Under the pieces are notes generated by a model. The model did not search any database. It was not told the DNA's origin and saw only the letters and a program-made list of their open reading frames with translations. Shown one piece after another: positions 1 to 12,721 of a stretch of DNA of 64,000 bases (its first letter is position 1; every line of letters starts with the position of its first letter). The stretch is from an uncultured Thermotogae bacterium (lineage in GTDB: Bacteria > Bipolaricaulota > Bipolaricaulia > UBA7950 > UBA9294): contig CAYXLR010000002.1 of assembly GCA_964466035.1 (NCBI GenBank), positions 67,206-131,205 of the forward strand. Direction: 5' to 3'. The position numbers and the translations under genes are program-made.

Positions 1-185
1 TGGGGGCCCTTTTCACCCTGAGTGACGACATAGTCCACCCTCTGTCCCTCGGTCAGTTTCTTGAAGCCTGTCCCACGAACGGAACTGAAGTGGACGAACA
101 CGTCTCCGCCTTGGGGCCGCTCGATGAAGCCGTACCCTTTGGCGTCGTTGAACCACTTGACCTTCCCGGTTTCACGCTCTGCCAT
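1..185 (-). CDS. Cold-shock protein (CspA family); C-terminus cut by window edge
   Basis: Not in the ORF track because it runs off the edge. Manual reverse translation from the ATG at 185 gives [61 protein letters not shown]. It carries the KGYGFI and VFVHF RNA-binding motifs. A GGAGG lies about 10 nt upstream (196-200). Confidence 0.9.
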
Positions 186-388
186 GGTCAATCTACCTCC
201 CTTGAATCTTCGGTACTCCATGTCGAAGGCTCCGACATCCTGAACACTACTCCCAACCGATGTCGCGACTCCCGTCGATCAGGCCGCTGGATCCTGTCGA
301 TCCAGAGCGCGCATCCCTGTGACGCGGACGCGCGAGAACCGCCTCGTCGGCGACTCCCACTTCCACAGACATCATCCGTCCTACTCGT

Positions 389-701
389 TCAATCATCGGC
401 TCTCCCTTTCCGAGGCTGTTCGCGGGGGCCAGCCTGGCCGGCCCCATGGTGGTCCCTCTCCTCGGATGCTTCCTCCGTCCCATTGCGGGTTTGCCTCATG
501 CCTGATGCTTGTCGGTCAGGGTCCGTACCGTATGTGTCCACAAGGCGCACGGACCAGCTCGGCGGTAGCATCGCCGCTATTGTGAGCAATCCAAGAGGCG
601 GCGAAGAGGCCTTTCTCCCAAGTGAAGCTGAGCGCTCGCTTGAAGCTCCAGAATGTTGGCGGAACTTCCGGGTAGATCAGTAGAGCATTCGTAGTATTCA
701 C
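389..701 (-). pseudogene. Decayed N-terminal fragment of a B12-binding radical SAM protein
   Basis: ORF 516..701 reads NALLIYPEVPPTFWSFKRALSF. The expected continuation PPLGLLTIAAMLPPSWSVRLVDT is in another frame (ORF 389..589), and a possible VRTLTDK continuation is in a third frame before a stop. At least two frame breaks are present and no radical-SAM core follows. Confidence 0.55.
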
Positions 702-765
702 CTCTCGAATTGGGCTTCCTTCGTAGCGACCTTGTCGCGCTGCGACTTCCTCCCGGGACCAGCGA

Positions 766-939
766 TCACACGCGCTTCAGGGCGTCTGTCACGTACTGCT
801 CCACGGCCGTGCGGATGATCTCGGACTCCGAGACTCCCTCCCTCTCCGACAGCTCTTGCAGCTGGGCCAGCAACTTGGCGGGAGCCATGAAGTTCTTCAT
901 CACTAAAGGATTCTCTGGATCTCGCTTTCTGCGTGCCAT
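766..939 (-). CDS. Ribbon-helix-helix (CopG/antitoxin-like) DNA-binding protein, 57 aa
   Basis: MARRKRDPENPLVMKNFMAPAKLLAQLQELSEREGVSESEIIRTAVEQYVTDALKRV has a beta-strand followed by two helices, which is the typical RHH layout. The start is set at 939 because the promoter -10 overlaps the upstream Met at 957. No partner toxin ORF was recognised downstream. Confidence 0.7.
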   Translation of the reverse strand: MARRKRDPENPLVMKNFMAPAKLLAQLQELSEREGVSESEIIRTAVEQYVTDALKRV

Positions 940-956
940 GAGGGGTGACCGGTCCA

Positions 957-985
957 AGTATACGATTAGTTATATATTTAGTCAA
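957..985 (-). promoter_or_regulatory. Sigma70-type promoter for the RHH gene
   Basis: The minus strand reads TTGACT (985-980), a 17-nt spacer, then TATACT (962-957), in the most AT-rich patch of this region. The predicted TSS is about 10 nt before the ATG at 939. Confidence 0.6.
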
Positions 986-1383
986 TAGCTCGGCCACCTT
1001 GCGGGACCCGACAGGGCCGCTCGCTTTCTCGACTGGAGATGTGCCACCGGGGTGCAGTGGGTGGTAAGAGGCGTGCAGTAGGGGTTCCAAGACCAGGAAC
1101 AGATCAGCAGAAGGTTTTCCGATCGTTCATCCAGGCTCCAGCCCAGAGGGTCCGAACTCGGTACGACGCCGTTCGAGAAGCGTCGAGGTAGGTGAGGCGG
1201 GCGAGACAGATCTCGAACCAAGCACCAAAAACGTCGAACGCTCCGTGAATGAGTACGCGGTCTGTGCAGGCTGCGTACCGGTTCAGAGGCAATCTGCCGG
1301 GCTTGGAAGGCCCGTGCTTCTCGAACTGACCGGATCCCGCTGTCTGATCCACTCGTGGAGTTCGTCCGCAACTCCTCAGCTGC

Positions 1384-2034
1384 CTAGGTCGGCGGACTTG
1401 GTGGGTCCTCTTGCTCCCACTTCGAGAGGTGTCCGAGTTTCTCGTTCTCCTTGTAGTCAGCGAGGATTGCCCAAACGACAATGGCCAACGTTGCGAGATA
1501 GACAGCCTCGATTGCCAGGGTGGACCAGAACACAAGATCCGATAGCTGTTGGATGGCAAGTGCCCAGATGCCCGCTCCGAAGATTGCCACAGAGAAGACG
1601 AGTATCGGGGCGAACCGCGCGAACGCAAGCGCCTTGTGCATCCACCACTCGATAGGATCCTCACTTGCCACTGCACTCCGATGCTTCATCAACTCCTTCT
1701 CCCAAGTCAACGCCCCCCTGGGCAGGGTTGGGTCCTGTCGCCTTATCACTTCCTCTATGTACTGCGCGTTGTAGGCGATCAACAGGTCATGCCGCACGTA
1801 ATAGAGCACGAGAACGCCCATGACACCTCCTACAGTCAGGAGGACCGGCCACACCCACTCCGAGAGGCTTCCAGAGCCTGCACTGATGGCAGCTCCCAGC
1901 AGACCTCCTGTCGCGCCGGCGAGTAGTAGAGCGTAGTTGAGCATTGCCTGCTGCGCGCCTAGCCTGTGGAGGATTTCCGTTCTCCTTGCTTGGTAGTCGA
2001 CTTGGAACCAGGAGTGATCTGGTTTCTCCATCAT
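1384..2034 (-). CDS. Hypothetical integral membrane protein (about 4 TM helices), 216 aa
   Basis: GGGAGG lies directly upstream of the ATGATG start. Four hydrophobic segments are present (AMLNYALLLAGATGGLLGAAI, WVWPVLLTVGGVMGVLVLYYV, FAPILVFSVAIFGAGIWALAI, LVFWSTLAIEAVYLATLAIVVWAIL). It is the last gene of the minus-strand string, 160 nt after the Shango helicase. Confidence 0.7.
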   Translation of the reverse strand: MMEKPDHSWFQVDYQARRTEILHRLGAQQAMLNYALLLAGATGGLLGAAISAGSGSLSEWVWPVLLTVGGVMGVLVLYYVRHDLLIAYNAQYIEEVIRRQDPTLPRGALTWEKELMKHRSAVASEDPIEWWMHKALAFARFAPILVFSVAIFGAGIWALAIQQLSDLVFWSTLAIEAVYLATLAIVVWAILADYKENEKLGHLSKWEQEDPPSPPT

Positions 2035-2195
2035 CTGCCTCCCTTCGGCTTGAACTGCAAACGCACTGCCGCCCGAAGATGCTACATCAACAGCCGATCG
2101 GCCGGATCCACCTAAGCGTCGGACCTCTTATGACCCAACACCGGACTGATCGCCTGGCCGCGAATCGACACCTGGAGACCATGCAAGAGAGACTG

Positions 2196-4433
2196 TCAGG
2201 CTGAAGGGAACCTGGATAGGACTTCCTCGACATAGTCCTTCGTCTCCTGGATGCGGATCATCCGAGACGCATAGTCGATCGCCGTAAGTTCATCACCCAA
2301 GTACTCATCGTACTTCTCAGTCTCCCGATTCCGTACTTGGAACGCCAAGGCCACCGGGTCGTGATCGCAGGTCAACGCATCGCGAAGCTTCGCAGCAAAG
2401 GAGCTAGGCGGCATCCTGGGGCAGCGCAAAGCGACAGCAAGCAGATCAACTTGGCAGGATGTGGCCTCCAGCATGGCCCTGAGAGTGTGTCGTATGAGGT
2501 CGCTAGTCCAGCAGAAGAGGTACGAGTCACCTCCGTACTGGATGAGGCTCGTCTGGGCCAGTCCGAGATCTGCGAACGTCCTTTGCGCCGCGCGAAGGAA
2601 GTACTCCGCGGTCCTGTCAAGATAGGCTCGCGACTCGCTGCTGGCCAGTGCACTTCTCATTCTCTCTCGCACCTCGCGCCCCACCAGCCAGCCGCTTCCT
2701 GCAAAGCGCGGAGGCTTCCCCGCCGGCGAAGGCACGAGGGTCACGACTCTCCGCTGGCTATCCACATCTCGAATTAGCCACCTCTGTCCCCCAAAGATCA
2801 TGTGGTTGCCCGGGATCAGAGGATGAGAGATCGGTAGCGATCCGAGCGGGCCGTCGGGAGCCATCAGGGTGTATTCCTCTGGCGTATGGAAGATCGCGTA
2901 GAAGCCTCGCTGGCGCTGAATCCTCTCTCCCTCAGATCCGAGAAGAAGCGTGCCGTTGGGAGCCTGCTCGATCAGGTTCCTCGCGCCCATCTGCCGAAGC
3001 AGCGCAATGAAGATGTCCTTCTCGACATTTTCAAACGGGCCGGTATCGCAGAGTATTCTCCACAACTCAGATGCGGTCACACCTCCCTTCTCCCCGATCA
3101 TCGAGAGGATCTGATGCAGAAGAGTCGAAAGGTGCAGTGACTCCGCTGTTGGGGATTCGCACCAACCGTCAAGTAGCAGGTCGAGTTGCGCGACTGTCTG
3201 GATCATCCTCAAGTGCAGTCTCTCTTCGATGCTCGAATCCGATCGCGGGATGTACTCCATCACGTAGAGACGCAGCACTGCGGGATTCCCACGTCTCCCT
3301 GAGCGTCCCAGCCTCTGGCGAATGCTCGATACGGAAGGCGGACAGCCTATCTGTCCGACGCTCTCGATCTGACCGATGTCTATTCCCAGTTCCAGCGTAC
3401 TCGTGCAGACTGCTGTAGCGGGCCGATTCGGATTCCTTAGCGCCTCCACTGCGTGCTCTCTCAAAGGCTTGGACAGGGATCCGTGGTGCGCGAAGAACTC
3501 ATTCGGAACTGATGCCGCCTCACATAGACGCCGCAGCTTGTCGGCGTACATCTCAACACCAGCCCTGGTGTTTGCGAAGAGGAGGTTGTTCCTCCCCCTC
3601 AGAGCATTGAACACCACTTTCGGGATCTCATCTGCCACTGCCATCTTCAGCTCGCCTGCGTCAGACCCAGTCGAGCCCTGTTGGCTCCCATCGGCTTCAT
3701 CCGCGAATCCCAGAAGCGCCATGCGAAGCTCACCCTTATCACCAGCTCGGATGTGGATTGCATCCCGATCACTGCCGGGCCGAAGGAAGGCAGCGGCCTG
3801 ATCGAGATCACCGAGCGTCGCGCTTAGCGCTACGCGCGTTGCGGAGTGGCCAGTGACAACATCGAGACGGTGCATGAGGCTCTGAAGCTGTCTCCCTCGT
3901 TCAGCAGCTAAGTAGGAGTGCAACTCATCAACCACGACATACTGCAGTGGCGCGAACAGCCGCCGCATGTGGTCTCCCCTAACGACGAAGAACGCCTCTA
4001 GTGACTCGGGCGTTGTCAGGAGAATCCCCTCGGGGTTCCGCATGGCGCGTGTCCTGGTGGATTGGGAGACGTCGCTATGCCAAGCCGTCACCGCGACATC
4101 TACCAGCTCAGCGATCTCGGTCAGCCTACGGTGCTGGTCATCGATTAGTGCCCTGAGCGGAGAGACGTACAGAACTCTGAATCCAATCAGCTCTTCAGTA
4201 TCCGCAGCCAGGATGCTCAGGATTGGCAAGAAGACCGCCTCGGTCTTCCCGCCAGCTGTGGGAGCAGCAACCACGACATCAGACTCGGCCGAGCACATGA
4301 TCGCCTGGATTGCTCTCTCCTGGATCTCGTGGAGCTTCGTCCACCGCTGCTGCCACGCCCACTTCTGCAGGCGCTTGTCCAGGAGATCAAAGGATGAGCT
4401 TCGAGCGTTAGAGCTTGAAACGTGCGAGGCCAT
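2196..4433 (-). CDS. sngC: Shango SngC-type DEAD/DEAH (Lhr-like) helicase
   Basis: Helicase motif I is AAPTAGGKTEA, motif II is VVVDELH, SAT is SATLG and motif VI is QRLGRSGRRG. A C-terminal extension of about 330 aa follows. The start is uncertain (Met at 4433, 4463 or 4511). It overlaps the end of the upstream ATPase gene. Confidence 0.85.
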   Translation of the reverse strand: MASHVSSSNARSSSFDLLDKRLQKWAWQQRWTKLHEIQERAIQAIMCSAESDVVVAAPTAGGKTEAVFLPILSILAADTEELIGFRVLYVSPLRALIDDQHRRLTEIAELVDVAVTAWHSDVSQSTRTRAMRNPEGILLTTPESLEAFFVVRGDHMRRLFAPLQYVVVDELHSYLAAERGRQLQSLMHRLDVVTGHSATRVALSATLGDLDQAAAFLRPGSDRDAIHIRAGDKGELRMALLGFADEADGSQQGSTGSDAGELKMAVADEIPKVVFNALRGRNNLLFANTRAGVEMYADKLRRLCEAASVPNEFFAHHGSLSKPLREHAVEALRNPNRPATAVCTSTLELGIDIGQIESVGQIGCPPSVSSIRQRLGRSGRRGNPAVLRLYVMEYIPRSDSSIEERLHLRMIQTVAQLDLLLDGWCESPTAESLHLSTLLHQILSMIGEKGGVTASELWRILCDTGPFENVEKDIFIALLRQMGARNLIEQAPNGTLLLGSEGERIQRQRGFYAIFHTPEEYTLMAPDGPLGSLPISHPLIPGNHMIFGGQRWLIRDVDSQRRVVTLVPSPAGKPPRFAGSGWLVGREVRERMRSALASSESRAYLDRTAEYFLRAAQRTFADLGLAQTSLIQYGGDSYLFCWTSDLIRHTLRAMLEATSCQVDLLAVALRCPRMPPSSFAAKLRDALTCDHDPVALAFQVRNRETEKYDEYLGDELTAIDYASRMIRIQETKDYVEEVLSRFPSA

Positions 4434-5733
4434 CGTTGACGGTTCCCTCTTGTCCGTCCACATCAAACTCCTCGCCAGCAATCGGGTTCCCGCCGGAGTC
4501 GGCATGCACATCCACGCCAGTTAGAATCGTCTGCCACGACACGTCCGGGTTCTGCTCTAGCACAGCGAGAAGATCTACAAAAGCCATGATTGTCGTTCGA
4601 GGCGTTCGGAAGTACGCCTCGCCGATTCGGTTCATGCAATGCCCCATGAATGCCTCGATGACTTCGCTTGTTACAGTGATAGTCTCCTCTCGGCCTGAAG
4701 TGTAGACGTCTCGGACCTTCTCAAGCAGAACGAATAGGTCCTCTGGCGTAAGGCTCTGCAGCCGGATCACGGGACCACTGTGGTCTACCAATCCGTCCAC
4801 CGCGAAAGTGTTCTCCGCAAGGCGCGAACTCAGAGCTTCATGGCTGTACACACCTCTGCGGGGATCTTGCAGGAACTCCAGCGTGCCTGCAGCGAGGAAG
4901 CCAATGCCTCTTGAGATACCCTGTATGCTGTCATTGACGATCCGCAGTAGCTGCTCGTAGTTGCCGCGACGGGCCTGTGCGTTCTGCAGCATATAGATGC
5001 TGACCATCTCGTCCAGACAGACAAGCAGCCCATCGAAGCCTGCAAGCCGGCAGAACCGACCGAGTAGCTTCAGGTGGTCGTAGAACGAGTTATCACTGAC
5101 AATCGTGCGGATGCCGAGCGCCTGCCGCGCTTCGGTTTTCGTAGAGAACTCTCCTCTCAGCCACCGTATCGCATTCGACCTTAACTCATCGTCACCGGCG
5201 TCATAGCCTCGCCAATACGCCGCCACGACCGCCCCGAAGTCATACCCGCCCACGAGTTCGGATAGAGCCGCAACTCGGCTCGCGATAACGGAGTTCACGT
5301 CTGCGGATGTGCTTTCAGCCTCAGCAAGCGCCCCCGCGACGAATCGTTCCACAAGTGCTGGAAGCGCTCCTCCATCTGGGCTGCTGCGTGTCGACATGTT
5401 CCTCATCAGCTCGCTGTAGAGTGCGCGCGCCTGCCCGCCTGTTGAATACAGACGGCGAGCCGAAGACAGGTCGCAGTGAACTGTCACCAGTTTCCTACTA
5501 AGAGCCATCTCACGTACCAGGTTTAGGAAGAAGGTCTTGCCTGAACCGTAATCTCCGATCACGAATCTGATGCCCGAACCACCATCCGCAATCCGCTCGA
5601 TGTCCTTCTTCATCTCGCGGATCTCGTTCTCCCGCGCTACCTGGATGTGCTGGATGCCCGTTCGAGGAACAACTCCTGCCTGAAGAGCTTGCACGATCGC
5701 ATCTCGAACTCGTGGTCTGATACGACTACTCAT
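4408..5733 (-). CDS. sngB: Shango SngB-type ATPase (DUF2791/BrxD-like)
   Basis: Walker A is GDYGSGKTFF and the Walker-B-like segment is LLVCLDEM. The overall layout matches the BREX BrxD/DUF2791 family. The ATG at 5733 overlaps the sngA stop by 8 nt. Confidence 0.85.
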   Translation of the reverse strand: MSSRIRPRVRDAIVQALQAGVVPRTGIQHIQVARENEIREMKKDIERIADGGSGIRFVIGDYGSGKTFFLNLVREMALSRKLVTVHCDLSSARRLYSTGGQARALYSELMRNMSTRSSPDGGALPALVERFVAGALAEAESTSADVNSVIASRVAALSELVGGYDFGAVVAAYWRGYDAGDDELRSNAIRWLRGEFSTKTEARQALGIRTIVSDNSFYDHLKLLGRFCRLAGFDGLLVCLDEMVSIYMLQNAQARRGNYEQLLRIVNDSIQGISRGIGFLAAGTLEFLQDPRRGVYSHEALSSRLAENTFAVDGLVDHSGPVIRLQSLTPEDLFVLLEKVRDVYTSGREETITVTSEVIEAFMGHCMNRIGEAYFRTPRTTIMAFVDLLAVLEQNPDVSWQTILTGVDVHADSGGNPIAGEEFDVDGQEGTVNDGLARFKL

Positions 5734-7981
5734 ACAACCCCCCAACAAGGTCAGCAATGTCTGTCACGACTCGAAGCGGATCTGCCTTCTCAATCAACAC
5801 ATCCTCGAATCTGTCCACGACAGCTTCGTTGATAGCCTCGATAGCTGCGTCGGGGAGCAAGTTGACCTCGCGACACATCTCAGCCCATCGTTCCACAGGA
5901 ATCTGTCCATAGCGAAGAAGCTCCAGGACCAGCCGGCGGTGCGCATCGTCGAAGATCTCGTCGCCTTGGTCTTCCTCATCCTCGTCCACCGTCTCGAGCT
6001 GTGCCTGAGGCTCCTCCTCGTAGAAGACCTCTTCGAGCAGTGTGACGACCGATTCGGACTCTTCTCGTTTCCTCCGAATGCTCTCTTCATCCAGGACAAT
6101 CACGCCACCTTCTGTGGCCGTCTGCGGCGGAAGCTCGTACGATGGGGACGTTTCGCGAGCCTGTCGAACGGTCACTGGCTCCTTCCCCGACGCACCACTC
6201 CCGCCAGCCATGAGTTCGTGAATCTCGGAATGCACGGACTCCGGCGGCAGCTCGAGAACGCTGTACGTCTTCTGCAGTGCCTTGACCTCTTCCTGCGTAA
6301 TGCGGCCGTCAGCTGCAGCCACAAGAAGAAGGTACTTCGCAATCTCCTGTCTCTGCGTCTCACTCAACCCCGACACGGCGCTTCTCAGTGACCGAGCCGC
6401 AGGCGGGCTTCCTAGCAGGATTCGCAGTCGAGCCTCAAGGCGGTTTCTTTCGGCAGCACTCAGGCCAGAGAACCGCCTCGATATCACATCTAGCTCCGCT
6501 GCGTCCACACCATCGGTAGAGCTAACCGTGACGGCGAACGGTAGAGACGCAGCGCAAGCCCTGAATTCGGGTGACAGCTTCGATTCCGGCTTCCACTCTT
6601 GTCTGAAAATGCAGATGGTGCTGGCAAGATCGGGAACCTTGCCGCCATACGCAGGGTCTGGCTCGACTCCAAAGCCAAGCTTCCCAAGCAAGAGAGAAGC
6701 GAGTTCCCACTTCTTTCGAGTCAGTTCTTCTGGACTGACTCCTTCTAGTTCAGACACGAGGTCGCTCGCCGCTGCTTCGCGTAGTGCGTCTTCGGCGAGC
6801 AACTCGTTCAGCCACTCGCGAACTCTCGCCACAACCGCAGAGGAGGTCTCGTCCAGAACCTCCTTTGGCAGAAGTGCCGGCAAGTACTCCGTCAGCGAAG
6901 CAGCTGACTTCCTCCCCAATGCACGGCTGTACTTGTCCAACGCGTTGGTGCATTCCTCCACAATCGCTCGGAGCTTGTCGGTTGGCCTCTTGAGCACCGT
7001 GACATCAGGCAGTTCCGTATGGAGCCGGAATGGTCGGCTTGATATAGCGAGGCTGGCCGCCTGGTACTCAATCCTGAGTGGGGTTTTGCTCGGAGCGACA
7101 ACTATCCCGTCCCCGTGCTTTTTCGAGTAGCGGCTCAGGAAGAGGGACTCGAATTCTTCCCTGCATCTGATTGCCGGTGTTCGGAGGTTGTTGAGCGGTA
7201 TGTTATACGCCCATTGTAGCGCCCACTGTGCAGGAACCGGCTCCCCAGCTGCCGCGAATTGGCCCAGCCCCAGCTTGACCTCAAGAGGTACGTCCCAGCG
7301 GCGGGCGAGGGGAGATTGAAGCTCTACTCTGCTTTCCGTGAGCATCGCTTTGCTACACGCTAGCAACCCGAGGAAGCTACCCGTGTAGCCCTGAAATGAC
7401 CCACTGTCTGGGTAGAGTTCTCTCAGCCGTAGGACCTCGTCTCTGATGAGATCGAGTTCCTCGGTCCATGTGCCACGCGCGATCAGCTCATCGATCGCTC
7501 GCTTCTCCAAACCGTAGAAGAAGATGAATAGGTGGCCTGTATCGACAGCCGGGGTCTTCCTCCCGTCGGCCAGCCACTGCAGGTAGCCCGCCCGATTAGC
7601 CGGCGAAAGCCCCGAGTAGCTCGGCCAGTACCCGATGTCTCCCGTCGTGCCCGGTGGGTGGTCGTCTACTGGTAGCCTGGTGTTGATGAGCGAAGGGTCG
7701 CTCCACTTGCCGGATGCCCCGGGCTTGTGATCAGCTGCGTACACGAAGCCCGCCGTAATCGAATACCCAGCGACTTCGATGAGGTCGCCAGGAAGTAGCC
7801 ATCTAGCGTCGCTGCCTCTTTCCTTCTTAGTTGGCGCCTGAGGATAGCTCGTCCTAACGGTGATTGTGAAGGAGTCGTCGTCGCCACTGCGCCGCGCTCG
7901 CTCCTGCTCCTCGCGCTTCTGAGCGGACTTCCATAGGAAGTAGCCAACAGCAATCACAACGACAACTACCCAGAACCACAT
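5726..7981 (-). CDS. sngA: Shango SngA-type TerB-N/TerB/TerB-C protein with an N-terminal TM helix
   Basis: An N-terminal helix (WFWVVVVVIAVGYFLW) is followed by a TerB-N-like region. A TerB-like segment (EIAKYLLLVAAADGRITQEEVKALQKTY) comes next, then an acidic linker and a TerB-C-like tail (LDEESIRRKREESESVVTLLEEVF...). The gene order A-B-C matches the published Shango system. Confidence 0.85.
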   Translation of the reverse strand: MWFWVVVVVIAVGYFLWKSAQKREEQERARRSGDDDSFTITVRTSYPQAPTKKERGSDARWLLPGDLIEVAGYSITAGFVYAADHKPGASGKWSDPSLINTRLPVDDHPPGTTGDIGYWPSYSGLSPANRAGYLQWLADGRKTPAVDTGHLFIFFYGLEKRAIDELIARGTWTEELDLIRDEVLRLRELYPDSGSFQGYTGSFLGLLACSKAMLTESRVELQSPLARRWDVPLEVKLGLGQFAAAGEPVPAQWALQWAYNIPLNNLRTPAIRCREEFESLFLSRYSKKHGDGIVVAPSKTPLRIEYQAASLAISSRPFRLHTELPDVTVLKRPTDKLRAIVEECTNALDKYSRALGRKSAASLTEYLPALLPKEVLDETSSAVVARVREWLNELLAEDALREAAASDLVSELEGVSPEELTRKKWELASLLLGKLGFGVEPDPAYGGKVPDLASTICIFRQEWKPESKLSPEFRACAASLPFAVTVSSTDGVDAAELDVISRRFSGLSAAERNRLEARLRILLGSPPAARSLRSAVSGLSETQRQEIAKYLLLVAAADGRITQEEVKALQKTYSVLELPPESVHSEIHELMAGGSGASGKEPVTVRQARETSPSYELPPQTATEGGVIVLDEESIRRKREESESVVTLLEEVFYEEEPQAQLETVDEDEEDQGDEIFDDAHRRLVLELLRYGQIPVERWAEMCREVNLLPDAAIEAINEAVVDRFEDVLIEKADPLRVVTDIADLVGGLYE

Positions 7982-7990
7982 ATCGGCACC

Positions 7991-8399
7991 TCAGCCCCGC
8001 TGCTCAGGTTTCTCCTGTTGCTTCAGTAGCAGCTCTCTTGCCTTCGCCAGTCGCTCCGTGAAGCCCTTAGTCTGCACACCATGTCCGTGTTCCTGCCGTG
8101 CGAATCGCTCGAGGATCTCAACTTCGCGAGCGAAGTCCTTCTGCTTGCGGTACAGCTTGGCGGCCTCCATAGTAGTACCATGGAGCGACTGCCCACCTCT
8201 TCTTTCGAGCTTCTGCCTCGACCGCGTCAATCAGCTCTCGCAGCAGTTCTTCGAGTTTAGCTAGGCGCCCCTGCCGCTTCAGGTCTTTGGCTACTTCCAC
8301 ATAATCGGTGTAGTGGCGCCCCCGAACGTAACCAGCTCTCATCCAAGCACCTCCTGCCTGAAGGTGCCTCTTCAGGCCAATCGACCAACTGCTCAGCAT
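7991..8399 (-). pseudogene. Small helical (TPR-like) protein split by a +1 frame break
   Basis: ORF 8118..8399 ends ...RWAVAPWYYYGGRQ. ORF 7991..8230, one frame over, continues MEAAKLYRKQKDFAREVEILERFARQ. Joined, the two read APWYY(Y)-EAAKLYRKQKDF, like a single conserved small protein. The break is at the TACTACTAT run, about 8168-8180. The ATG at 8399 directly abuts the TGA of the upstream gene. Confidence 0.5.
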
Positions 8400-11300
8400 T
8401 CACACTGTATCAGCCAACTCCAAGTAACGACAAAACGAGTTGGCTAGCATCATCTGTCGCGGAGTGCGACACTCAGGCCGGAAGAGCAATGGGCTTGACA
8501 CCAGGATGCACGCACACCGCGCCCTAGACGTCGCGACGTTGATGCGGCTCTGGCTGTACAAGAACTCCATCCCGCGCGGAGCTTCCTCAGGAGATGAAGT
8601 AGCCGTCGAGTAGATCACTATAGGCGCCTCCTGTCCCTGGAACTTATCGACAGTGCCGACTCGTGCTCTTTCCGGTAGTTCCTCCAATAGGTCGGCAACT
8701 TGCGCGTTGTATGGCGCAACGATGAGTATGTCTTCCAGGGAGACTGGGAGCATCTGCCCATCCTTGTCCCGCCACGAGGTTCTACCGTCCACTAGCTCGG
8801 AGACCAAGCGCGCCACTGCACTTACCTCCTCAGGAGAGTCGTTCCGATTCCCTTCGTGAACTACTGGGGAGTACCACAGGCCCGCACCGCGGATCGGGGT
8901 TCCTCCAACCACCTCCTGCCGATGAAGGTTTGCCTGTGAGCGAAGACGGCTCTCGTAGAACATCTCGGATGTGTATCCGCATATGGTGGGATGAAGTCTC
9001 CATGTCGTTTCGAGGAACAGACCTCGATCTGGTGGAAGCGTTGCATGCCCTGCCAGTAAATGCTCGAGCGCGCTGACATCGGTCCCGTCCGGGTGGCTCC
9101 CACGCTTTGGCTGCTCGAGTTGCTGCGGATCGCCTAGTAGTACAACGGATGTCGCTGCTTGTGAAACAGCCAAGACGTTAGCAAGCGACATCTGCCCGGC
9201 TTCATCGACGAAGAGGATGTCGACTGAGCCATCAGCCTCCTCGCGCGCCCATAGCCATGCCGTTCCTGCAGCAACGTCAACCTCACCGCTCGACAGCAGT
9301 GCGAAGACCTTCTCGTTAGACGTAGTCTCAGTGATCCCTTCAGGAGGCTCCTCTTCCGACTTCCGGGTGGCTTTCTGGACGCAGCGGATGCCCCTTCCTG
9401 CTTCGTAGGCTGCCTCGAGAGTGGCGTCCAGCAAGTTACGGATGACCTTGTGGCTGACTGCTGTAATGCCAACCTTCTTCCCAGCTACCACCGCTTCGCA
9501 GATCATCCTCGCACCTATGAACGTCTTGCCGGAACCTGGTGGCCCTTGGATTGGCAACACGCCAGCGTCGAGTTCGTGGACCAGCTTGCGGGCCGCATCA
9601 AGCGCAGTGGGTGCCGCTTCGAGATGTTCGGAAATCGGTCCGCCGCGAAGGCGCGGCGGCAGTCCAAGCAGCAGATCCCGCCCCGCACGATGCTCTCCCG
9701 GTTCATCAACCTGATGCTCTGCCACCCACTCACCGACCCGAAGCAATGCATCTTGGAGCACACTGGTCCTGACGGCATCATGAGTGAAGACCGTCTTGGG
9801 ATGGATATCAGCAATCGATGGCCCCTTCTTGATGTCAACGAGGCGCCGTGCTTGGTCAATGGCAGCTACTTCTCCGAATCCCGAGTTCTCCCCGTCGCCG
9901 CGTCGAAGCCGGTCACCGGGTCGGATCTTGGTTTCTTGGGGCGGGAAACGATACCTGTCAACGAAGCTCTTCTTGATTTGCTCAACACGCTTCACGAACT
10001 CCAGCCCCGCGATGGCCGCTCGTTCATCGAGCAGCTCCTCATCAGTGAGGCCGACGAGCCTGTAGAACTCCCACCAGACCGCCTTCTCCTCTCTGCGATG
10101 CCACTCCAGGAGCTGCGCGAGAGTCCAGACTGCCTGCTGCTCCCTGTCTCGCTCACGCTTATCCACTGGCAGATCCCGGGTTAGCCTCTTGGCCAACTCC
10201 CTTGCGCGAGTGATGACCTCTTCGAGTTCCTCGCTCGGTCTGCCGTCACTGTGTTGAGGTCTGGGGATTCTCTTCCCCTCCTGGACCAGATCCGTTCGCA
10301 GATCCTCCAGCCAGCTACGCAAGCGCAGCGTAGACAAGCAGTCATCTCGGTTGTAGCCCTCAACAGCATCCCGGACTTCCTCGGGGATTGATTCAGCCGC
10401 GCCGAACTCCAGGGCGTACTCCAAGGCTTGCATGTGACGGGCGGCAGCTCTTAAGTCAACAGAGCGATCGAAACCGAAAAACGGCTCAAGGTCCTTGATC
10501 GAGTACGACTCAACACTTGCACGAAGGGATTGACGAACAATGGCGTACAGGTCGACGAATCGCTCTCCACGAAGAAGCCGATCGACTTCATCCTCCCGTG
10601 TCGCGTGACGCCCCATCAGGCGTTTGATTGCCGACGGCTCGTACGGTGCGTAGTGGTAGATGTGGAATCCGCTATCCGCCTCCCATCGCTCAATCGCGTC
10701 ATCCACGAAGCTTTCAAAGGCCTGCTTCTCGGCCGCTGGTGTCAGGCCCCAGAGCGACTCGTACTGCGGCTTCCCGTCGCCATCGAGAGACACAACCCCA
10801 AACAGGTACTCCAGTCCCTCCTCACCAACGAATCGCGCGCCTTCGAAGTCGAAGAAGATGTCAACCGGTGTTGGCTCTGGAAGACGGGACAACCCGAACC
10901 CTTCTTCCGGCTCAAGCATCTCGTGTACAGGTTCACCGCGCTCGCGTCCCGCAAGCTGCACGCGGGCCTGATCGCGGATCTTCGCATAGCCCTCGTGAGA
11001 TCCCCTCGTCGGCCTCGGATCAAGCGGGAGTTCCGCCGAGGCTAGTGCGGCAAGCGTATTGACACCTCTGGCCTGTAGCTCCGCGATCTGCATCTTGCTG
11101 ATGCTGGCAACCAAGGACAGGTGGTCATCAGCATGGCGACGTGTGTCACACTCCTGCCACCAGCGGCAGATGTCGCATTGCTCGCACGGTTCTGGATAAG
11201 TCTCACCACCACTCCAGTCTCCCTTCTTCACTACGGACTGAGCTTGGGCACGCACTAGGCGGTAGTAAGCCATGTAGTTGGCGACTCGATAGCTCTCCGG

Positions 11301-11831
11301 TACGAAGTCGACCCCCGGAGGAACGACGTGCATCTGCTCAGGCAAGCAGCCTTGGATACCCGCAAGGATGTCGGAGTAGAGACAGAGCTGGAGTATGGTG
11401 CGCCCTCGCGTCTCACGCGCCAGTTTCGTGTCGAGTGCTTCGTACGAGTACTCTCCAAGGTTCGGAGAGGGCGTAGCGACTCGTCGAAGGACATCGGCGC
11501 GCCCCATCCAGCCATTGCTGAGTAGGGTTGCCTGGGTAATGACCTCCGTGCCGCGCTTCATCTCCGCGAGCGTTGCGGCAAACTGCGCACGAGTGTCACC
11601 AGTCTCCCGCAGCTCAGCGACTGCGCATCCCTTCTTCTTCAGGTGCCCAATGTAGGCAGCCTCGTGCTCGTAGCCGCGTTGCTGGAGCGCCTCAAGTGCC
11701 GGATCCGAATAGCCAGGGGCCTCGAGATCGCCCCGCGCCACAAGTAGATCGAGGCGAGTCAAGTGCTGACACCCTAGGTGATTCGCAAGATCGCTGGCAG
11801 TTAGCTGAACGGTGTTTTCCGAGACTCGCAT
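8400..11831 (-). CDS. Multidomain RecB/Cas4-like nuclease (TM0106-type), RNase-H-like domain and SF1 (DNA2/Upf1-like) helicase, 1143 aa
   Basis: The N-terminus has PD-(D/E)xK-like motifs (GRADVL, EALDTKL, QLCLYSDIL) and a Cys cluster (CEQCDICRWWQEC). The middle has DnaQ/RNase-H-like motifs (IFFDFEG, HYAPYE, YNRDDC). The C-terminus has SF1 motifs (GPPGSGKTF, DEAGQMS, LLGDPQQL, VDKFQGQE, NVATSRAR). Confidence 0.85.
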   Translation of the reverse strand: MRVSENTVQLTASDLANHLGCQHLTRLDLLVARGDLEAPGYSDPALEALQQRGYEHEAAYIGHLKKKGCAVAELRETGDTRAQFAATLAEMKRGTEVITQATLLSNGWMGRADVLRRVATPSPNLGEYSYEALDTKLARETRGRTILQLCLYSDILAGIQGCLPEQMHVVPPGVDFVPESYRVANYMAYYRLVRAQAQSVVKKGDWSGGETYPEPCEQCDICRWWQECDTRRHADDHLSLVASISKMQIAELQARGVNTLAALASAELPLDPRPTRGSHEGYAKIRDQARVQLAGRERGEPVHEMLEPEEGFGLSRLPEPTPVDIFFDFEGARFVGEEGLEYLFGVVSLDGDGKPQYESLWGLTPAAEKQAFESFVDDAIERWEADSGFHIYHYAPYEPSAIKRLMGRHATREDEVDRLLRGERFVDLYAIVRQSLRASVESYSIKDLEPFFGFDRSVDLRAAARHMQALEYALEFGAAESIPEEVRDAVEGYNRDDCLSTLRLRSWLEDLRTDLVQEGKRIPRPQHSDGRPSEELEEVITRARELAKRLTRDLPVDKRERDREQQAVWTLAQLLEWHRREEKAVWWEFYRLVGLTDEELLDERAAIAGLEFVKRVEQIKKSFVDRYRFPPQETKIRPGDRLRRGDGENSGFGEVAAIDQARRLVDIKKGPSIADIHPKTVFTHDAVRTSVLQDALLRVGEWVAEHQVDEPGEHRAGRDLLLGLPPRLRGGPISEHLEAAPTALDAARKLVHELDAGVLPIQGPPGSGKTFIGARMICEAVVAGKKVGITAVSHKVIRNLLDATLEAAYEAGRGIRCVQKATRKSEEEPPEGITETTSNEKVFALLSSGEVDVAAGTAWLWAREEADGSVDILFVDEAGQMSLANVLAVSQAATSVVLLGDPQQLEQPKRGSHPDGTDVSALEHLLAGHATLPPDRGLFLETTWRLHPTICGYTSEMFYESRLRSQANLHRQEVVGGTPIRGAGLWYSPVVHEGNRNDSPEEVSAVARLVSELVDGRTSWRDKDGQMLPVSLEDILIVAPYNAQVADLLEELPERARVGTVDKFQGQEAPIVIYSTATSSPEEAPRGMEFLYSQSRINVATSRARCACILVSSPLLFRPECRTPRQMMLANSFCRYLELADTV

Positions 11832-11841
11832 GCGTGTCTAT

Positions 11842-11850
11842 ATCATAGCA
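11842..11850 (-). promoter_or_regulatory. Candidate extended -10 promoter (TGcTATGAT) for the defence-gene string
   Basis: The minus strand reads TGCTATGATATAGACACGCATG. The -10 ends 10 nt before the ATG at 11831, implying a nearly leaderless mRNA. No good -35 element was seen. Confidence 0.35.
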
Positions 11851-12019
11851 TGTGATTGTTCCGACCGCATTGGCGAGTTCATGATGCCCCAGACAGCAGG
11901 ACTCGACCGAGTAGCTGTTGCTTCACACAGCAACTGGAGAACGCGGTTATGTGATACGCCGTCCGTGCAAACAGCGTATTCAAGTGCTTGCTCCTCCTCA
12001 GCTGGCTTCTGGATCTGAC

Positions 12020-12721
12020 CTACTCCATAAGTAGCGACGCGGCTTCCTCGTCGACCAGGAACGTCACGGTTCCGTCCGTTGGCTGAACCAACCCGGCGGG
12101 CACGGGGCTTCCCGATTCGACGGCTCGGACGGCGTCTGCCTTTTCCGCGCCGGTTACGAGGAAGAGGACGTGCCGCGCGGCGTTGATCAGCGGGAGCGTC
12201 ATCGTGATCCGCCACGGCGGCTCGGCCAGGGCGTGCACCGGGACGATCCATCGATCGGTTTCGCTCAGCGCCTGATGCCTCGGAAAGAGCGACGCGGTGT
12301 GGCCGTCCGCGCCGATCCCGAGCAGGATCAGATCGAGCCGACCGTCGGCTCCGACGACGCGGCGAAGCTCGATCTCGTACGCGTCGGCCGCGGCGAGCGG
12401 ATCGAGCTCCCCCGCGATGCGATGGATCCGGTCCGCGGGGATCGGGACGCGATCGAGGAGCGCCTCGCGGGCCGACCGGTAATTGCTCCGCGGGTCGGTC
12501 GGCGGGACGCAGCGCTCGTCGGCCCAGAAGACGTCGACGGCGGCCCAATCGAGTTCCGCCGACGTGGCGAGGCGCTCGTACAGCGGGCGCGGCGTCTTTC
12601 CGCCGGAGAGCGCGACGAGGAACCGGCCTCGCTCGCGGATCGCCTCGGCGCCGATCCGGACGAACCGTTCAACGGCGTGTGCGAACAGGGCCTCCCGCGC
12701 GTCGAAGCGTACGAGTTTCAT
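12020..12721 (-). CDS. pgl: 6-phosphogluconolactonase
   Basis: The N-terminus MKLVRFD...FLVALSGGKTPRPLYERLA is typical of Pgl/NagB-fold lactonases. It sits 3 nt downstream of zwf. Confidence 0.85.
   Translation of the reverse strand: MKLVRFDAREALFAHAVERFVRIGAEAIRERGRFLVALSGGKTPRPLYERLATSAELDWAAVDVFWADERCVPPTDPRSNYRSAREALLDRVPIPADRIHRIAGELDPLAAADAYEIELRRVVGADGRLDLILLGIGADGHTASLFPRHQALSETDRWIVPVHALAEPPWRITMTLPLINAARHVLFLVTGAEKADAVRAVESGSPVPAGLVQPTDGTVTFLVDEEAASLLME

What the first reader, a model, noticed from the sequence alone, without database searches (positions are those of the whole stretch)
2196..11831. Shango (sngABC) embedded in a longer coupled string headed by a nuclease-helicase
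The TerB-N/TerB-C protein, DUF2791 ATPase and DEAH helicase match the published three-gene Shango system in content and order. Here they are not a stand-alone operon. The 1143-aa nuclease-helicase stop (8400-8402) is directly followed by the ATG of a small gene (8399). That gene ends 9 nt before the sngA ATG (7981). sngA/sngB and sngB/sngC overlap. The only convincing promoter-like element lies upstream of the nuclease-helicase (11842-11850). Shango has no recognised nuclease effector of its own. A co-transcribed RecB/Cas4-type nuclease with an SF1 helicase could therefore be an accessory effector, or the two could form a fused two-system island. Either way this is an undescribed Shango context as far as I know.
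Basis: partly seen in the sequence, partly recalled or inferred. Interest (0 to 1): 0.65.

Follow-up and report, generated by a model that had tools for sequence, protein, structure and literature searches.

The report
Shango defence operon with neighbouring nuclease-helicase
A horizontally acquired 10-kb gene cassette joins the known three-gene anti-phage system Shango to an uncharacterised but very widespread nuclease-helicase gene and a small, here broken, adaptor-like gene; the pairing recurs in related microbes but each part also occurs alone, so it is most likely two co-travelling defence modules rather than one new machine.

Summary
The minus strand of 2196-11831 carries a 1143-aa TM0106-family nuclease-helicase ("NucHel"), a small gene, then sngA, sngB and sngC. 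The three Sng proteins give strong PADLOC hits, and the sng genes overlap.

Two corrections apply. The small gene is frameshifted by a 1-nt insertion at 8169-8171, also present in two other assemblies, and its likely start is ATG 8342, not 8399. The "promoter" is only an extended -10-like motif, although it is conserved in a relative whose NucHel is 90% identical.

The cassette (58.7% GC) sits in a 67-70% GC host, next to pgl.

The same neighbourhood recurs in one Shango clade: NucHel is adjacent in 5 of 8 lineages and the small TPR-like gene in 7 of 8. NucHel is sometimes inverted there, and its tree does not track Shango's. Independent juxtapositions occur in Erythrobacter, Bradyrhizobium, Mucilaginibacter and a metagenome contig.

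Outside these cases the two families are separate:
- About 96% of 160 surveyed NucHel loci lack Shango and sit beside other defence systems.
- None of 678 SngA-carrying plasmids has NucHel adjacent.

Best reading: a mobile two-module defence cassette, possibly co-transcribed and synergistic. It is a new variant of a known kind, of moderate interest.

The parts
8400..11831 (-). NucHel: a 1143-aa TM0106-family nuclease-helicase, full length and intact
   Evidence: It matches TIGR03491 at 245 bits against a cutoff of 97, and PF13482, AAA_11, AAA_12 and AAA_30. The family has 7763 homologues at E<=1e-20, aligned end to end. All 25 checked catalytic or structural residues are conserved across 161 family members, and the window carries the consensus residue at each.
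11127..11801 (-). Cas4/RecB-like PD-(D/E)XK nuclease domain with four cysteines, predicted to hold a 4Fe-4S cluster (aa ~11-235)
   Evidence: D113, D134-x-K136, Q148xxxY152 and C21/C219/C222/C228 are invariant or nearly so. This is the N-terminal part of the TIGR03491 match. Majorek 2014 describes COG2251 as DUF83 plus PF13482 plus tandem AAA domains.
10308..10859 (-). RNase H-fold domain predicted to be a DnaQ/PolB-like 3'-5' exonuclease (aa 325-508)
   Evidence: PF13482 matches at 1.9e-18. D324, D328, E330, D427 and D497 are invariant. The family is placed in the 3'-5' exonuclease clade in PMC3985635.
8487..9584 (-). Upf1-like SF1B helicase core (aa ~750-1115), with Walker A GPPGSGKT and DEAGQ
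   Evidence: It matches AAA_11, AAA_12 and AAA_30. The nearest solved structures are Nam7/Upf1, IGHMBP2, Sen1 and DNA2. K769, D876, E877 and Q880 are invariant.
11842..11850 (-). Extended -10-like motif TGCTATGAT, 10 nt upstream of the NucHel ATG
   Evidence: Read directly from the sequence. It is identical in L081, and a -10-like TAATGAT/TAATAAT is kept in L092 and L084. The two-hexamer scan does not flag it. This is a consensus match only.
11832..11985 (-). Conserved ~150-nt leader, marking the right edge of the transferred cassette
   Evidence: It is highly similar between the window and L081 up to about 11985. Beyond that lie the host pgl stop (12020) and host-level GC.
7991..8342 (-). Small TPR-like gene (about 116 codons when intact), frameshifted here by a 1-nt insertion at 8169-8171
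   Evidence: The alignment to intact L081 shows the insertion, and the same lesion is in L082 and L083. About 30 uninterrupted homologues of 100-120 aa exist. The AF2 model has pLDDT 87 and five helices, and its nearest folds are short TPR domains with weak support, E about 0.07 and TM 0.5-0.6. An AGGAGG lies 7 nt before ATG 8342.
5726..7981 (-). sngA: 751 aa with an N-terminal transmembrane helix, TerB_N, TerB and TerB_C
   Evidence: PADLOC SngA matches at 1.2e-74. Pfam TerB_N matches at 8.5e-44, TerB_C at 4.2e-19 and TerB at 6.8e-6.
4408..5733 (-). sngB: a BrxD-like (formerly DUF2791) ATPase of 441 aa
   Evidence: PADLOC SngB matches at 3.4e-167, against 5.4e-43 for BrxD. PF10923 matches at 1.8e-145. 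The ATG at 5733 overlaps the end of sngA by 8 nt.
2196..4433 (-). sngC: a DEAH-box SF2 helicase (the ORF is open back to 4511)
   Evidence: PADLOC SngC matches at 1.1e-237, against 2.7e-117 for BrxHI. DEAD and Helicase_C also match. The likely start at ATG 4433 overlaps sngB by 26 nt.

Best explanation
The region is a horizontally acquired defence cassette built from two modules that travel together.

Module 1 is a complete Shango system (sngA, sngB, sngC). In this clade it carries an extra small TPR-like gene in front. That gene is inactivated by a frameshift in this organism.

Module 2 is a single large gene of the TM0106/COG2251 family. It combines a Cas4-like iron-sulfur nuclease, a DnaQ-like exonuclease fold and an Upf1/DNA2-like SF1B helicase.

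Inferred mechanism, not shown:
- NucHel acts alone, like DNA2 or the bacterial enzyme Bad. It loads on ssDNA or ss/ds junctions of invading or replicating foreign DNA, translocates 5'->3' and cuts.
- Shango acts by its own, still unknown, route. SngA is thought to survey the membrane, and the BrxD-like ATPase and DEAH helicase act on nucleic acid.
- In this window the genes share one orientation with no detectable terminator between them, so read-through co-expression is plausible. NucHel has its own conserved promoter-like motif, and Shango must also have one, because NucHel is inverted in relatives.

The repeated pairing suggests a selective advantage in keeping both, either layered or synergistic immunity, rather than obligate dependence.
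For: Shown:
- Gene content, order and intact catalytic motifs are confirmed.
- The cassette is 58.7% GC against 67-70% for the host, and its edges are the sngC stop and about 11985.

NucHel is a stand-alone gene with variable neighbours:
- 154 of 160 loci chosen only by NucHel similarity have no Shango.
- Its neighbours include a type III restriction enzyme, an Mrr-NACHT-HEAT protein, GmrSD/HEC-05, a DrmD-like protein with a TmtA-like protein, ZorA, SIR2-HerA, BrxA, QatD and PtuA.

Shango occurs without NucHel:
- No plasmid holds NucHel and SngA as one joined place. 678 records carry SngA and 69 carry NucHel.
- The Shango loci L183-L186, L192-L194, L190 and L197-L199 lack NucHel.
- Three-gene Shango alone protects PAO1 (PMC10250203).

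The modules are separable and re-assorted:
- NucHel is divergent in L187, L188 and L144.
- SngB is 87% identical between the window and L187, while NucHel is only 65% identical, so the two trees are incongruent.

The pairing is nevertheless recurrent:
- 5 of 8 lineages of the clade have NucHel adjacent.
- At least 4 further independent juxtapositions exist. Their nearest NucHel relatives are not linked to Shango.
- The Sng genes are the most recurrent multi-gene neighbour set of NucHel: each Sng gene cluster occurs in 8 of the 166 clustered loci, which include the window and 5 loci added after the survey.
Against: - The spacing is tight, as expected for operon partners: a TTGA start/stop overlap of sngC and NucHel in Erythrobacter, 24 nt in Bradyrhizobium and 42 nt in Mucilaginibacter.
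- Repeated re-association of non-cognate NucHel modules with this Shango clade is more than simple island co-residence predicts.
- Shango has no recognisable nuclease of its own.
- No experiment shows that NucHel defends against phage on its own. It is absent from PADLOC-DB v2 and still carries only a generic NCBIfam name.
Confidence: 0.55

Rival explanations
1. One integrated system. In this clade NucHel is the nuclease effector that Shango lacks, and the small TPR protein is the adaptor that couples it to SngA/B/C. Shango senses infection and recruits or licenses NucHel to degrade phage DNA.
For: - Recurrent immediate adjacency occurs in at least 5 independent NucHel lineages and three phylum-level groups (Alphaproteobacteria, Bacteroidota, and the clade that includes a Bipolaricaulota MAG).
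- sngC and NucHel show a translational-coupling-type overlap in L014.
- A small TPR gene lies at the junction. It stays with NucHel in L187 and with sngA in L188 and L197.
- PF13482 domains are elsewhere often fused to TPR repeats (PMC3985635).
- Non-cognate NucHel modules have re-associated with this Shango clade.
- No nuclease domain is found in SngA, SngB or SngC.
Against: - Both partners occur alone far more often than together, even inside the clade.
- Orientation is not conserved.
- The proposed adaptor gene is frameshifted in this window while the other four genes are intact.
- The TPR protein also occurs alone beside unrelated defence genes: GmrSD/SLFN in L087 and SIR2-HerA in L088.
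- Canonical Shango works without NucHel.
Confidence: 0.3
2. Incidental neighbour. NucHel is a DNA-repair or recombination helicase-nuclease (a bacterial DNA2 analogue) carried on mobile elements, with no role in defence. Its adjacency to Shango reflects shared integration hotspots.
For: - Sequence conservation is very high for a defence gene: 67% mean column identity across phyla.
- It has a DNA2-like architecture.
- Some loci lie next to conjugation genes (TrwC and TrwB in L014) or housekeeping genes (DUF72, MFS).
Against: - Its neighbours are variable and rich in defence genes.
- It is frequent on plasmids beside WYL regulators and giant DUF3883 proteins.
- It has no conserved housekeeping synteny.
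Confidence: 0.08
3. Decaying cassette. The frameshift in the small gene marks a cassette that no longer functions in this host, so the string has no current function.
For: - The frameshift at 8169-8171 is fixed in three assemblies.
- The cassette is foreign by GC content.
- About 2.2 kb of island sequence to its left has no recognisable gene.
Against: - The four large genes, 9.0 kb in all, are uninterrupted with every checked catalytic residue intact.
- NucHel in the window is identical (tblastn identity 99.9-100%) to that of the other assemblies.
- A relative (L190) lacks the small gene entirely yet keeps an intact sngABC.
Confidence: 0.07

Closest known systems
Shango (SngABC; Millman et al. 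2022 bioRxiv 10.1101/2022.05.11.491447; Johnson et al. 2023 PMC10250203)
   Same: The three genes have the same domain content and order: a TerB_N/TerB/TerB_C protein, a DUF2791/BrxD-like ATPase and a DEAD/DEAH helicase. The ORFs overlap, and the top PADLOC hits are the Sng models.
   Different: In this clade a ~110-aa TPR-like gene precedes sngA, and a TM0106 nuclease-helicase lies next door. Neither is part of the published definition. In PA14 a 'large multi-domain helicase' is also reported directly beside Shango, but I could not test whether it is a NucHel.
TM0106 / COG2251 family (TIGR03491; RNase H-like family F.13 of Majorek et al. 2014, PMC3985635)
   Same: NucHel is a member. It has the Cas4-like DUF83 nuclease, the PF13482 exonuclease fold and the tandem AAA helicase domains described for COG2251.
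   Different: The family has only bioinformatic descriptions. I found no assigned biological role and no published link to Shango or to defence islands.
DNA2 and the bacterial DNA2-like enzyme Bad (Wilkinson et al. 2020, PMC7430649)
   Same: Both have an Fe-S RecB/Cas4-type nuclease N-terminal to an SF1B helicase in one polypeptide. Bad neighbours a type III methyltransferase, and several NucHel loci neighbour type III restriction-modification genes.
   Different: Sequence similarity to DNA2 is limited to the helicase. NucHel has an extra RNase H-fold domain between nuclease and helicase.
Single-protein helicase-nuclease defences with Upf1-like motors (Mokosh type II MkoC, Hhe, Nhi)
   Same: They share an Upf1-like SF1 helicase joined to a nuclease and residence in defence islands. 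NucHel gives partial PADLOC hits to MkoA and MkoC over the helicase only.
   Different: The nuclease is of a different kind: Cas4-like plus a DEDD-like fold, not PLD or Vsr. The Hhe match is negligible at E 0.006-0.008. No Nhi hit was returned.
BREX accessory genes BrxD and BrxHI
   Same: SngB and SngC are homologous to BrxD and BrxHI, which are their secondary PADLOC hits. BrxA-bearing loci are also found next to NucHel.
   Different: No BrxA, BrxB, BrxC, PglX or PglZ genes lie in the island, and the Sng models score far higher.

Membership tests
Shango | SngA: a protein with TerB_N and TerB_C (and TerB) domains | tested here: met
   PADLOC SngA matches at 1.2e-74. Pfam TerB_N, TerB and TerB_C all score above their cutoffs.
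Shango | SngB: a DUF2791/BrxD-like ATPase | tested here: met
   PADLOC SngB matches at 3.4e-167. PF10923 matches at 1.8e-145. The Walker A motif GDYGSGKT is present in the translation.
Shango | SngC: a DEAD/DEAH-box helicase | tested here: met
   PADLOC SngC matches at 1.1e-237 over model positions 3-718 of 720. DEAD and Helicase_C also match.
Shango | Three genes adjacent, co-oriented, in the order A-B-C | tested here: met
   The genes lie at 7981->5726, 5733->4408 and 4433->2196 on the minus strand, with overlaps of 8 and 26 nt.
Shango | Confers phage resistance | not testable with these tools
   Only published for systems from E. coli and P. aeruginosa.
TM0106 / TIGR03491 RecB-like nuclease family | Score above the curated NCBIfam cutoff | tested here: met
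   245.3 bits against a cutoff of 97.45, covering aa 11-508 and model positions 2-462 of 462.
TM0106 / TIGR03491 RecB-like nuclease family | Cas4-type PD-(D/E)XK motifs and four cluster cysteines | tested here: met
   D113, D134xK136, Q148xxxY152 and C21/C219/C222/C228 are present and conserved in 161 homologues.
TM0106 / TIGR03491 RecB-like nuclease family | Nuclease or exonuclease activity | not testable with these tools
   Predicted only (PMC3985635).
Mokosh (MkoA/MkoB or MkoC) | A COG1112/Upf1-like helicase together with a PLD-family nuclease | tested here: not met
   Hits to MkoA and MkoC cover only the helicase (aa 852-1131). NucHel has no PLD domain in Pfam, and the island has no PLD gene.
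Hhe / Nhi single-gene helicase-nuclease defences | Full-length match to the family model | tested here: not met
   Hhe matches at E 0.006 in PADLOC and at 13.5 bits against a cutoff of 2000 in NCBIfam. No Nhi match was returned.
DNA2 / Bad helicase-nucleases | An Fe-S RecB-type nuclease N-terminal to an SF1B 5'-3' helicase in one chain | tested here: met
   The architecture is present. This shows resemblance of design, not homology of the nuclease part.
DNA2 / Bad helicase-nucleases | Sequence homology to Bad (WP_053413574) over the full length | not tested
The paper mentions a 'second class' in Mycobacteria and Rhodococcus, which may correspond to the Rhodococcus and Arthrobacter hits.
BREX | Core genes BrxA, BrxB, BrxC, PglX and PglZ near the BrxD/BrxH-like genes | tested here: not met
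   All ORFs of at least 90 aa in 1-12000 are accounted for, and none matches these families.

The most novel reading that the evidence does not exclude
The TM0106-type nuclease-helicase is a modular, plug-in nuclease effector. Different sensor or ATPase modules recruit it: Shango through the small TPR adaptor, Tiamat-like or DUF3883 giants, and type III restriction-modification or BREX-like sets. In this clade it supplies the DNA-degrading step that Shango lacks. The string would then be a genuine four- or five-component Shango subtype, and NucHel a new widespread defence effector family.
Probability: 0.22. Interest if true: 0.72.

Novelty: new variant of a known kind. Interest (0 to 1): 0.45.

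Why it matters
- Shango is a validated anti-phage system whose mechanism and effector are unknown. A natural subtype that keeps a nuclease-helicase and a TPR adaptor next door gives a concrete, testable candidate for the missing effector step.
- Independently, the survey shows where a very large and highly conserved protein family lives. The family has more than 7,700 homologues and only a generic name in current annotation. It sits almost always in variable, defence-rich neighbourhoods, which makes it a good candidate for a new single-gene defence family.
- If the two modules prove independent, the locus is simply a compact defence island. That is useful for annotation but unsurprising.

Tried and rejected
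- **Viral contigs.** The scan with an SngA alignment returned only 11 loci, mostly TerB_N fragments. It was of no use as a reverse survey.
- **Azospirillum plasmid.** I suspected that its 1205-aa 'DEAD/DEAH helicase' upstream of Shango was a NucHel. It is not: tblastn gave no hit, and it is MkoC-like.
- **Contig L190.** I suspected that its partial upstream gene was the NucHel C-terminus. It is not: the adjacent 99-aa ORF is an HsdR_N-like fragment, and tblastn found no NucHel there.
- **Programmed frameshift in the small gene.** I rejected this reading. There is no slippery or stall motif, the zero frame runs on for 17 more codons, and relatives encode one uninterrupted ORF.
- **Island borders and the left flank.** I looked for flanking repeats, tRNA genes, integrases and RNA families. 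I found no tRNA or Rfam hit, only chance-level repeats, and no Pfam hit in 1-2195.
- **Literature.** I found nothing on TM0106 or PF13482 as a defence gene and nothing on the Shango mechanism. The Anantharaman 2012 Ter paper (PMC4104200) is not held.
- **Lower-GC stretch at 18-26 kb.** It is ordinary sugar-transport and glycosyltransferase DNA, not a second defence island.

Full report
**1. What is in the sequence**

The first 12 kb of the window is 58-59% GC. The next 6 kb is 68-72% GC and the rest of the window about 67%.

On the minus strand lie, in order:
- a 1143-aa ORF at 11831->8400;
- two short ORFs in different frames, 8399->8118 and 8230->7991;
- a 751-aa ORF at 7981->5726;
- a 441-aa ORF starting at ATG 5733 and ending at 4408;
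- a roughly 745-aa ORF from ATG 4433 to 2196, open back to 4511.

Upstream of 11831 lies the host 6-phosphogluconolactonase gene (12020-12721, PF01182 in the same-organism contig L082), followed by a zwf-like ORF.

**2. The Shango call is correct**

PADLOC gives SngA 1.2e-74, SngB 3.4e-167 and SngC 1.1e-237. In each case this is far better than the related BREX models BrxD and BrxHI.

Pfam gives TerB_N, TerB and TerB_C; BrxC_BrxD (formerly DUF2791); and DEAD plus Helicase_C.

sngA and sngB overlap by 8 nt (ATGAGTAG). sngB and sngC overlap by 26 nt if sngC starts at ATG 4433, which matches where the SngC model alignment begins. None of the three proteins has a nuclease domain.

**3. The nuclease-helicase call is correct**

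Residues 11-508 match TIGR03491 'TM0106 family RecB-like putative nuclease' at 245 bits against a cutoff of 97. Residues 325-508 match PF13482 RNase_H_2, and residues about 750-1115 match AAA_11, AAA_12 and AAA_30.

In alignments of 16 and of 161 homologues the following are invariant or nearly so, and all are present in the window protein:
- the Cas4 motifs D113, D134-x-K136 and Q148xxxY152;
- the four cysteines C21, C219, C222 and C228;
- the DEDD-like acidic residues D324, D328, E330, D427 and D497;
- the helicase motifs K769 and D876-E877-A-G-Q880.

The helicase is of the Upf1/Nam7/IGHMBP2/Sen1/DNA2 kind, that is SF1B. No solved structure matches the N-terminal half by sequence.

The same architecture was described bioinformatically for COG2251: a DUF83-like nuclease, PF13482 and tandem AAA domains, with a predicted 3'-5' exonuclease (PMC3985635).

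**4. The small gene was misread**

The stretch 8399..7991 is 409 nt. Alignment with the orthologous region of L081, whose NucHel is 90% identical, shows one extra base at 8169-8171. Two other assemblies of the same organism, L082 (JGI) and L083 (Logan), carry the same lesion.

About 30 homologues of 100-120 aa are uninterrupted. The conserved coding region begins at ATG 8342, 7 nt after an AGGAGG. The sequence between the NucHel stop and that ATG is not conserved as coding in L081. The abutting TGA/ATG at 8400/8399 is therefore probably fortuitous, and the true spacer is about 57 nt.

An AlphaFold2 model built on a family alignment (first sequence P0125; pLDDT 87) has five helices. Its nearest folds are short TPR domains such as Tah1, Hop TPR2A and LpoP. 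The statistics are weak, with E about 0.07 and TM 0.5-0.6. I treat 'TPR-like adaptor' as an inference.

**5. Promoters and terminators**

It resembles an extended -10 and lies 10 nt from the ATG, so a transcript from it would be nearly leaderless.

It sits in a ~150-nt leader that is highly conserved with L081. A -10-like element is retained in L084 and L092. This argues for a real NucHel promoter but remains a consensus match.

The generic scan finds promoter-like and terminator-like sites only at chance level, and none between the genes on the minus strand. Co-transcription is possible but not shown.

**6. How general is the association, starting from NucHel?**

It is strongly conserved, with 67% mean column identity across phyla.

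I fetched 80 species-representative genome loci and 80 metagenome loci, chosen only by NucHel similarity. Shango is immediately adjacent in six of them:
- L013 (Bradyrhizobium), L014 and L018 (Erythrobacter), arranged as sngA-sngB-sngC-NucHel. The sngC stop and NucHel start overlap as TTGA in L014 and are 24 nt apart in L013.
- L024 (Mucilaginibacter), arranged as NucHel-sngA'-sngB-sngC with a 42-nt gap. Here SngA' matches only TerB_C and the C-terminal half of the SngA model.
- L092, which has the same five-gene string as the window with an intact small gene.
- L144, where sngABC is transcribed divergently from NucHel.

The NucHels of these loci are not each other's closest relatives. Each has closer relatives that are not linked to Shango.

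In all-against-all clustering of neighbour ORFs, the Sng genes are the most recurrent multi-gene neighbour set. Each Sng gene cluster occurs in 8 of the 166 clustered loci. That set includes the window and 5 loci added after the survey, so the count is not unbiased. The Sng set is ahead of SIR2-HerA, type III restriction-modification and conjugation genes.

The other 154 loci carry NucHel as a solitary gene in variable contexts. The neighbours tested are mostly defence genes:
- a type III restriction enzyme;
- an Mrr-NACHT-HEAT STAND protein;
- GmrSD/HEC-05;
- a DrmD-like SNF2 protein with a TmtA-like protein;
- ZorA;
- SIR2-HerA;
- a PLD/ZacB-like protein;
- BrxA, QatD and PtuA.

**7. How general is the association, starting from Shango?**

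In PLSDB, SngA is on 678 plasmids, of which 449 are Klebsiella and 144 Salmonella. NucHel is on 69 plasmids, mostly alphaproteobacterial and Piscirickettsia.

A chimeric NucHel+SngA query found no record in which the two join into one place. About four records hold both genes, far apart. For three of these I inspected the region around NucHel, and it holds no Shango.

The Shango loci I inspected in Arthrobacter, Azospirillum, B. elkanii and Klebsiella plasmids, in viral contigs and in more distant metagenome relatives have no NucHel. Published three-gene Shango is active on its own.

**8. The clade that contains the window**

The closest SngA relatives, at 40-85% identity, fall into eight lineages:
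- Window, L081, and L084-86 with L092: NucHel-small-sngABC.
- L187: NucHel and the small gene are inverted as a unit, and a remnant of a small-gene 3' end is left in front of sngA.
- L188 (a Bipolaricaulota MAG): NucHel is divergent, and the small gene is in front of sngA.
- L197-199 and L189: small-sngABC without an adjacent NucHel.
- L190 and L191: sngABC alone.

NucHel is therefore adjacent in 5 of 8 lineages and the small gene is present in 7 of 8. Flanking genes differ in every case (pgl in the window; ISL3, IS110, IS21 or an integrase elsewhere). The set therefore moves as a cassette.

Identity matrices show that Shango has a structured tree, while the NucHels are star-like at 65-69% apart from the window-L081 pair. 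Window against L187 gives SngB 87% and SngC 80%, but NucHel only 65%. NucHel modules have therefore been exchanged or re-acquired next to this Shango clade, rather than only co-inherited.

**9. Interpretation**

The data fit a two-module cassette best.
- Each module is self-contained elsewhere.
- Orientation is not fixed.
- NucHel has many other partners.
- Shango must have its own promoter wherever NucHel is inverted.

The recurrent, tight and re-established pairing is more than I would expect from random co-residence in defence islands. I have no measured background rate, so this judgement is informal. It keeps the 'nuclease effector plus TPR adaptor' model alive at roughly 0.3.

In this window the proposed adaptor gene is broken while the four large genes are intact. 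This favours independent action of the two modules here.

The mechanism I assign to NucHel is translocation 5'->3' on ssDNA with endonucleolytic and exonucleolytic cutting. It is inferred from its domains and from the biochemistry of DNA2 and Bad (PMC7430649). It is not shown for this family.

**10. Novelty**

Shango itself is known. I found no description of a Shango subtype with a TPR gene, no description of a NucHel-Shango link, and no description of the TM0106-helicase family as a defence gene.

NucHel is not in PADLOC-DB v2, and the 2026 NCBIfam release gives it only the generic family name.

I rate it a new variant of a known kind, of moderate interest.

Noticed in passing
window 8169-8171 (also L082 ~5440, L083 ~4498): The 1-nt insertion that breaks the small gene also creates an in-frame ATG (8170-8168) at the head of the 3' half. 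Gene callers therefore report two ORFs, of 74/93 aa and 59 aa. I do not know whether either half is made.
   Followed up: partly
window 7981-7900; L188 8539-8600; L189 640-700: SngA starts with a transmembrane helix, MWFWVVVVVIAVGYFLWK. In L188 and L189 the small TPR protein carries a very similar N-terminal helix (MWYIVVVALIAAGYLIWK) that other family members lack. This suggests recombination between the 5' ends of sngA and the small gene.
   Followed up: no
L187 4711-9000: NucHel and a complete small gene are inverted relative to sngABC. A 37-codon ORF resembling the small gene's C-terminus remains just upstream of sngA. It looks like the scar of a module replacement.
   Followed up: partly
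L195 7912-18011; L196 7926-16957 (alphaproteobacterial plasmids): A NucHel subfamily about 37-39% identical to the window protein has its own conserved context. A divergent WYL-domain regulator is followed by NucHel, a small DUF4357 or DUF4258 gene and a giant protein of 1400-1800 aa (DUF3883 in L195). This may be a separate candidate system.
   Followed up: no
L184 3956-7573; L185 5070-8114; L193 1885-8946: Other Shango loci carry different large co-oriented genes just upstream of sngA. These are an MkoC-like Upf1-type helicase (Azospirillum), a PDC-S06 AAA_13 ATPase with a 109-aa ORF (B. elkanii), and a four-gene set containing SbcC- and SbcD-like genes (soil viral OTU). Johnson et al. also mention a 'large multi-domain helicase' beside PA14 Shango. 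The slot upstream of sngA may be a general docking site for nuclease or helicase modules.
   Followed up: partly
window 1-2195: About 2.2 kb of island-GC sequence lies downstream of sngC. It holds only a 216-aa predicted membrane ORF (1384-2034). It has no Pfam, PADLOC or NCBIfam hit, no Rfam hit, and no similarity to any fetched locus beyond about 30 nt past the sngC stop (to ~2163). The left border of the island is off the window or unrecognisable.
   Followed up: partly
L087 2424-2771; L088 10001-10447; P0142: The small TPR-like protein family also occurs alone in other defence contexts. It lies beside a GmrSD_N/SLFN-AlbA_2 gene in L087 and beside SIR2-HerA in an integrase-flanked island in L088. 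One member (P0142) is fused to a HIRAN domain (PF08797).
   Followed up: no
L022 6166-12829; clusters 13 and 27: Several NucHel genes sit directly after type III restriction-modification genes, with a 13-nt gap in L022. This echoes the published observation that the DNA2-like enzyme Bad always neighbours a type III methyltransferase.
   Followed up: no
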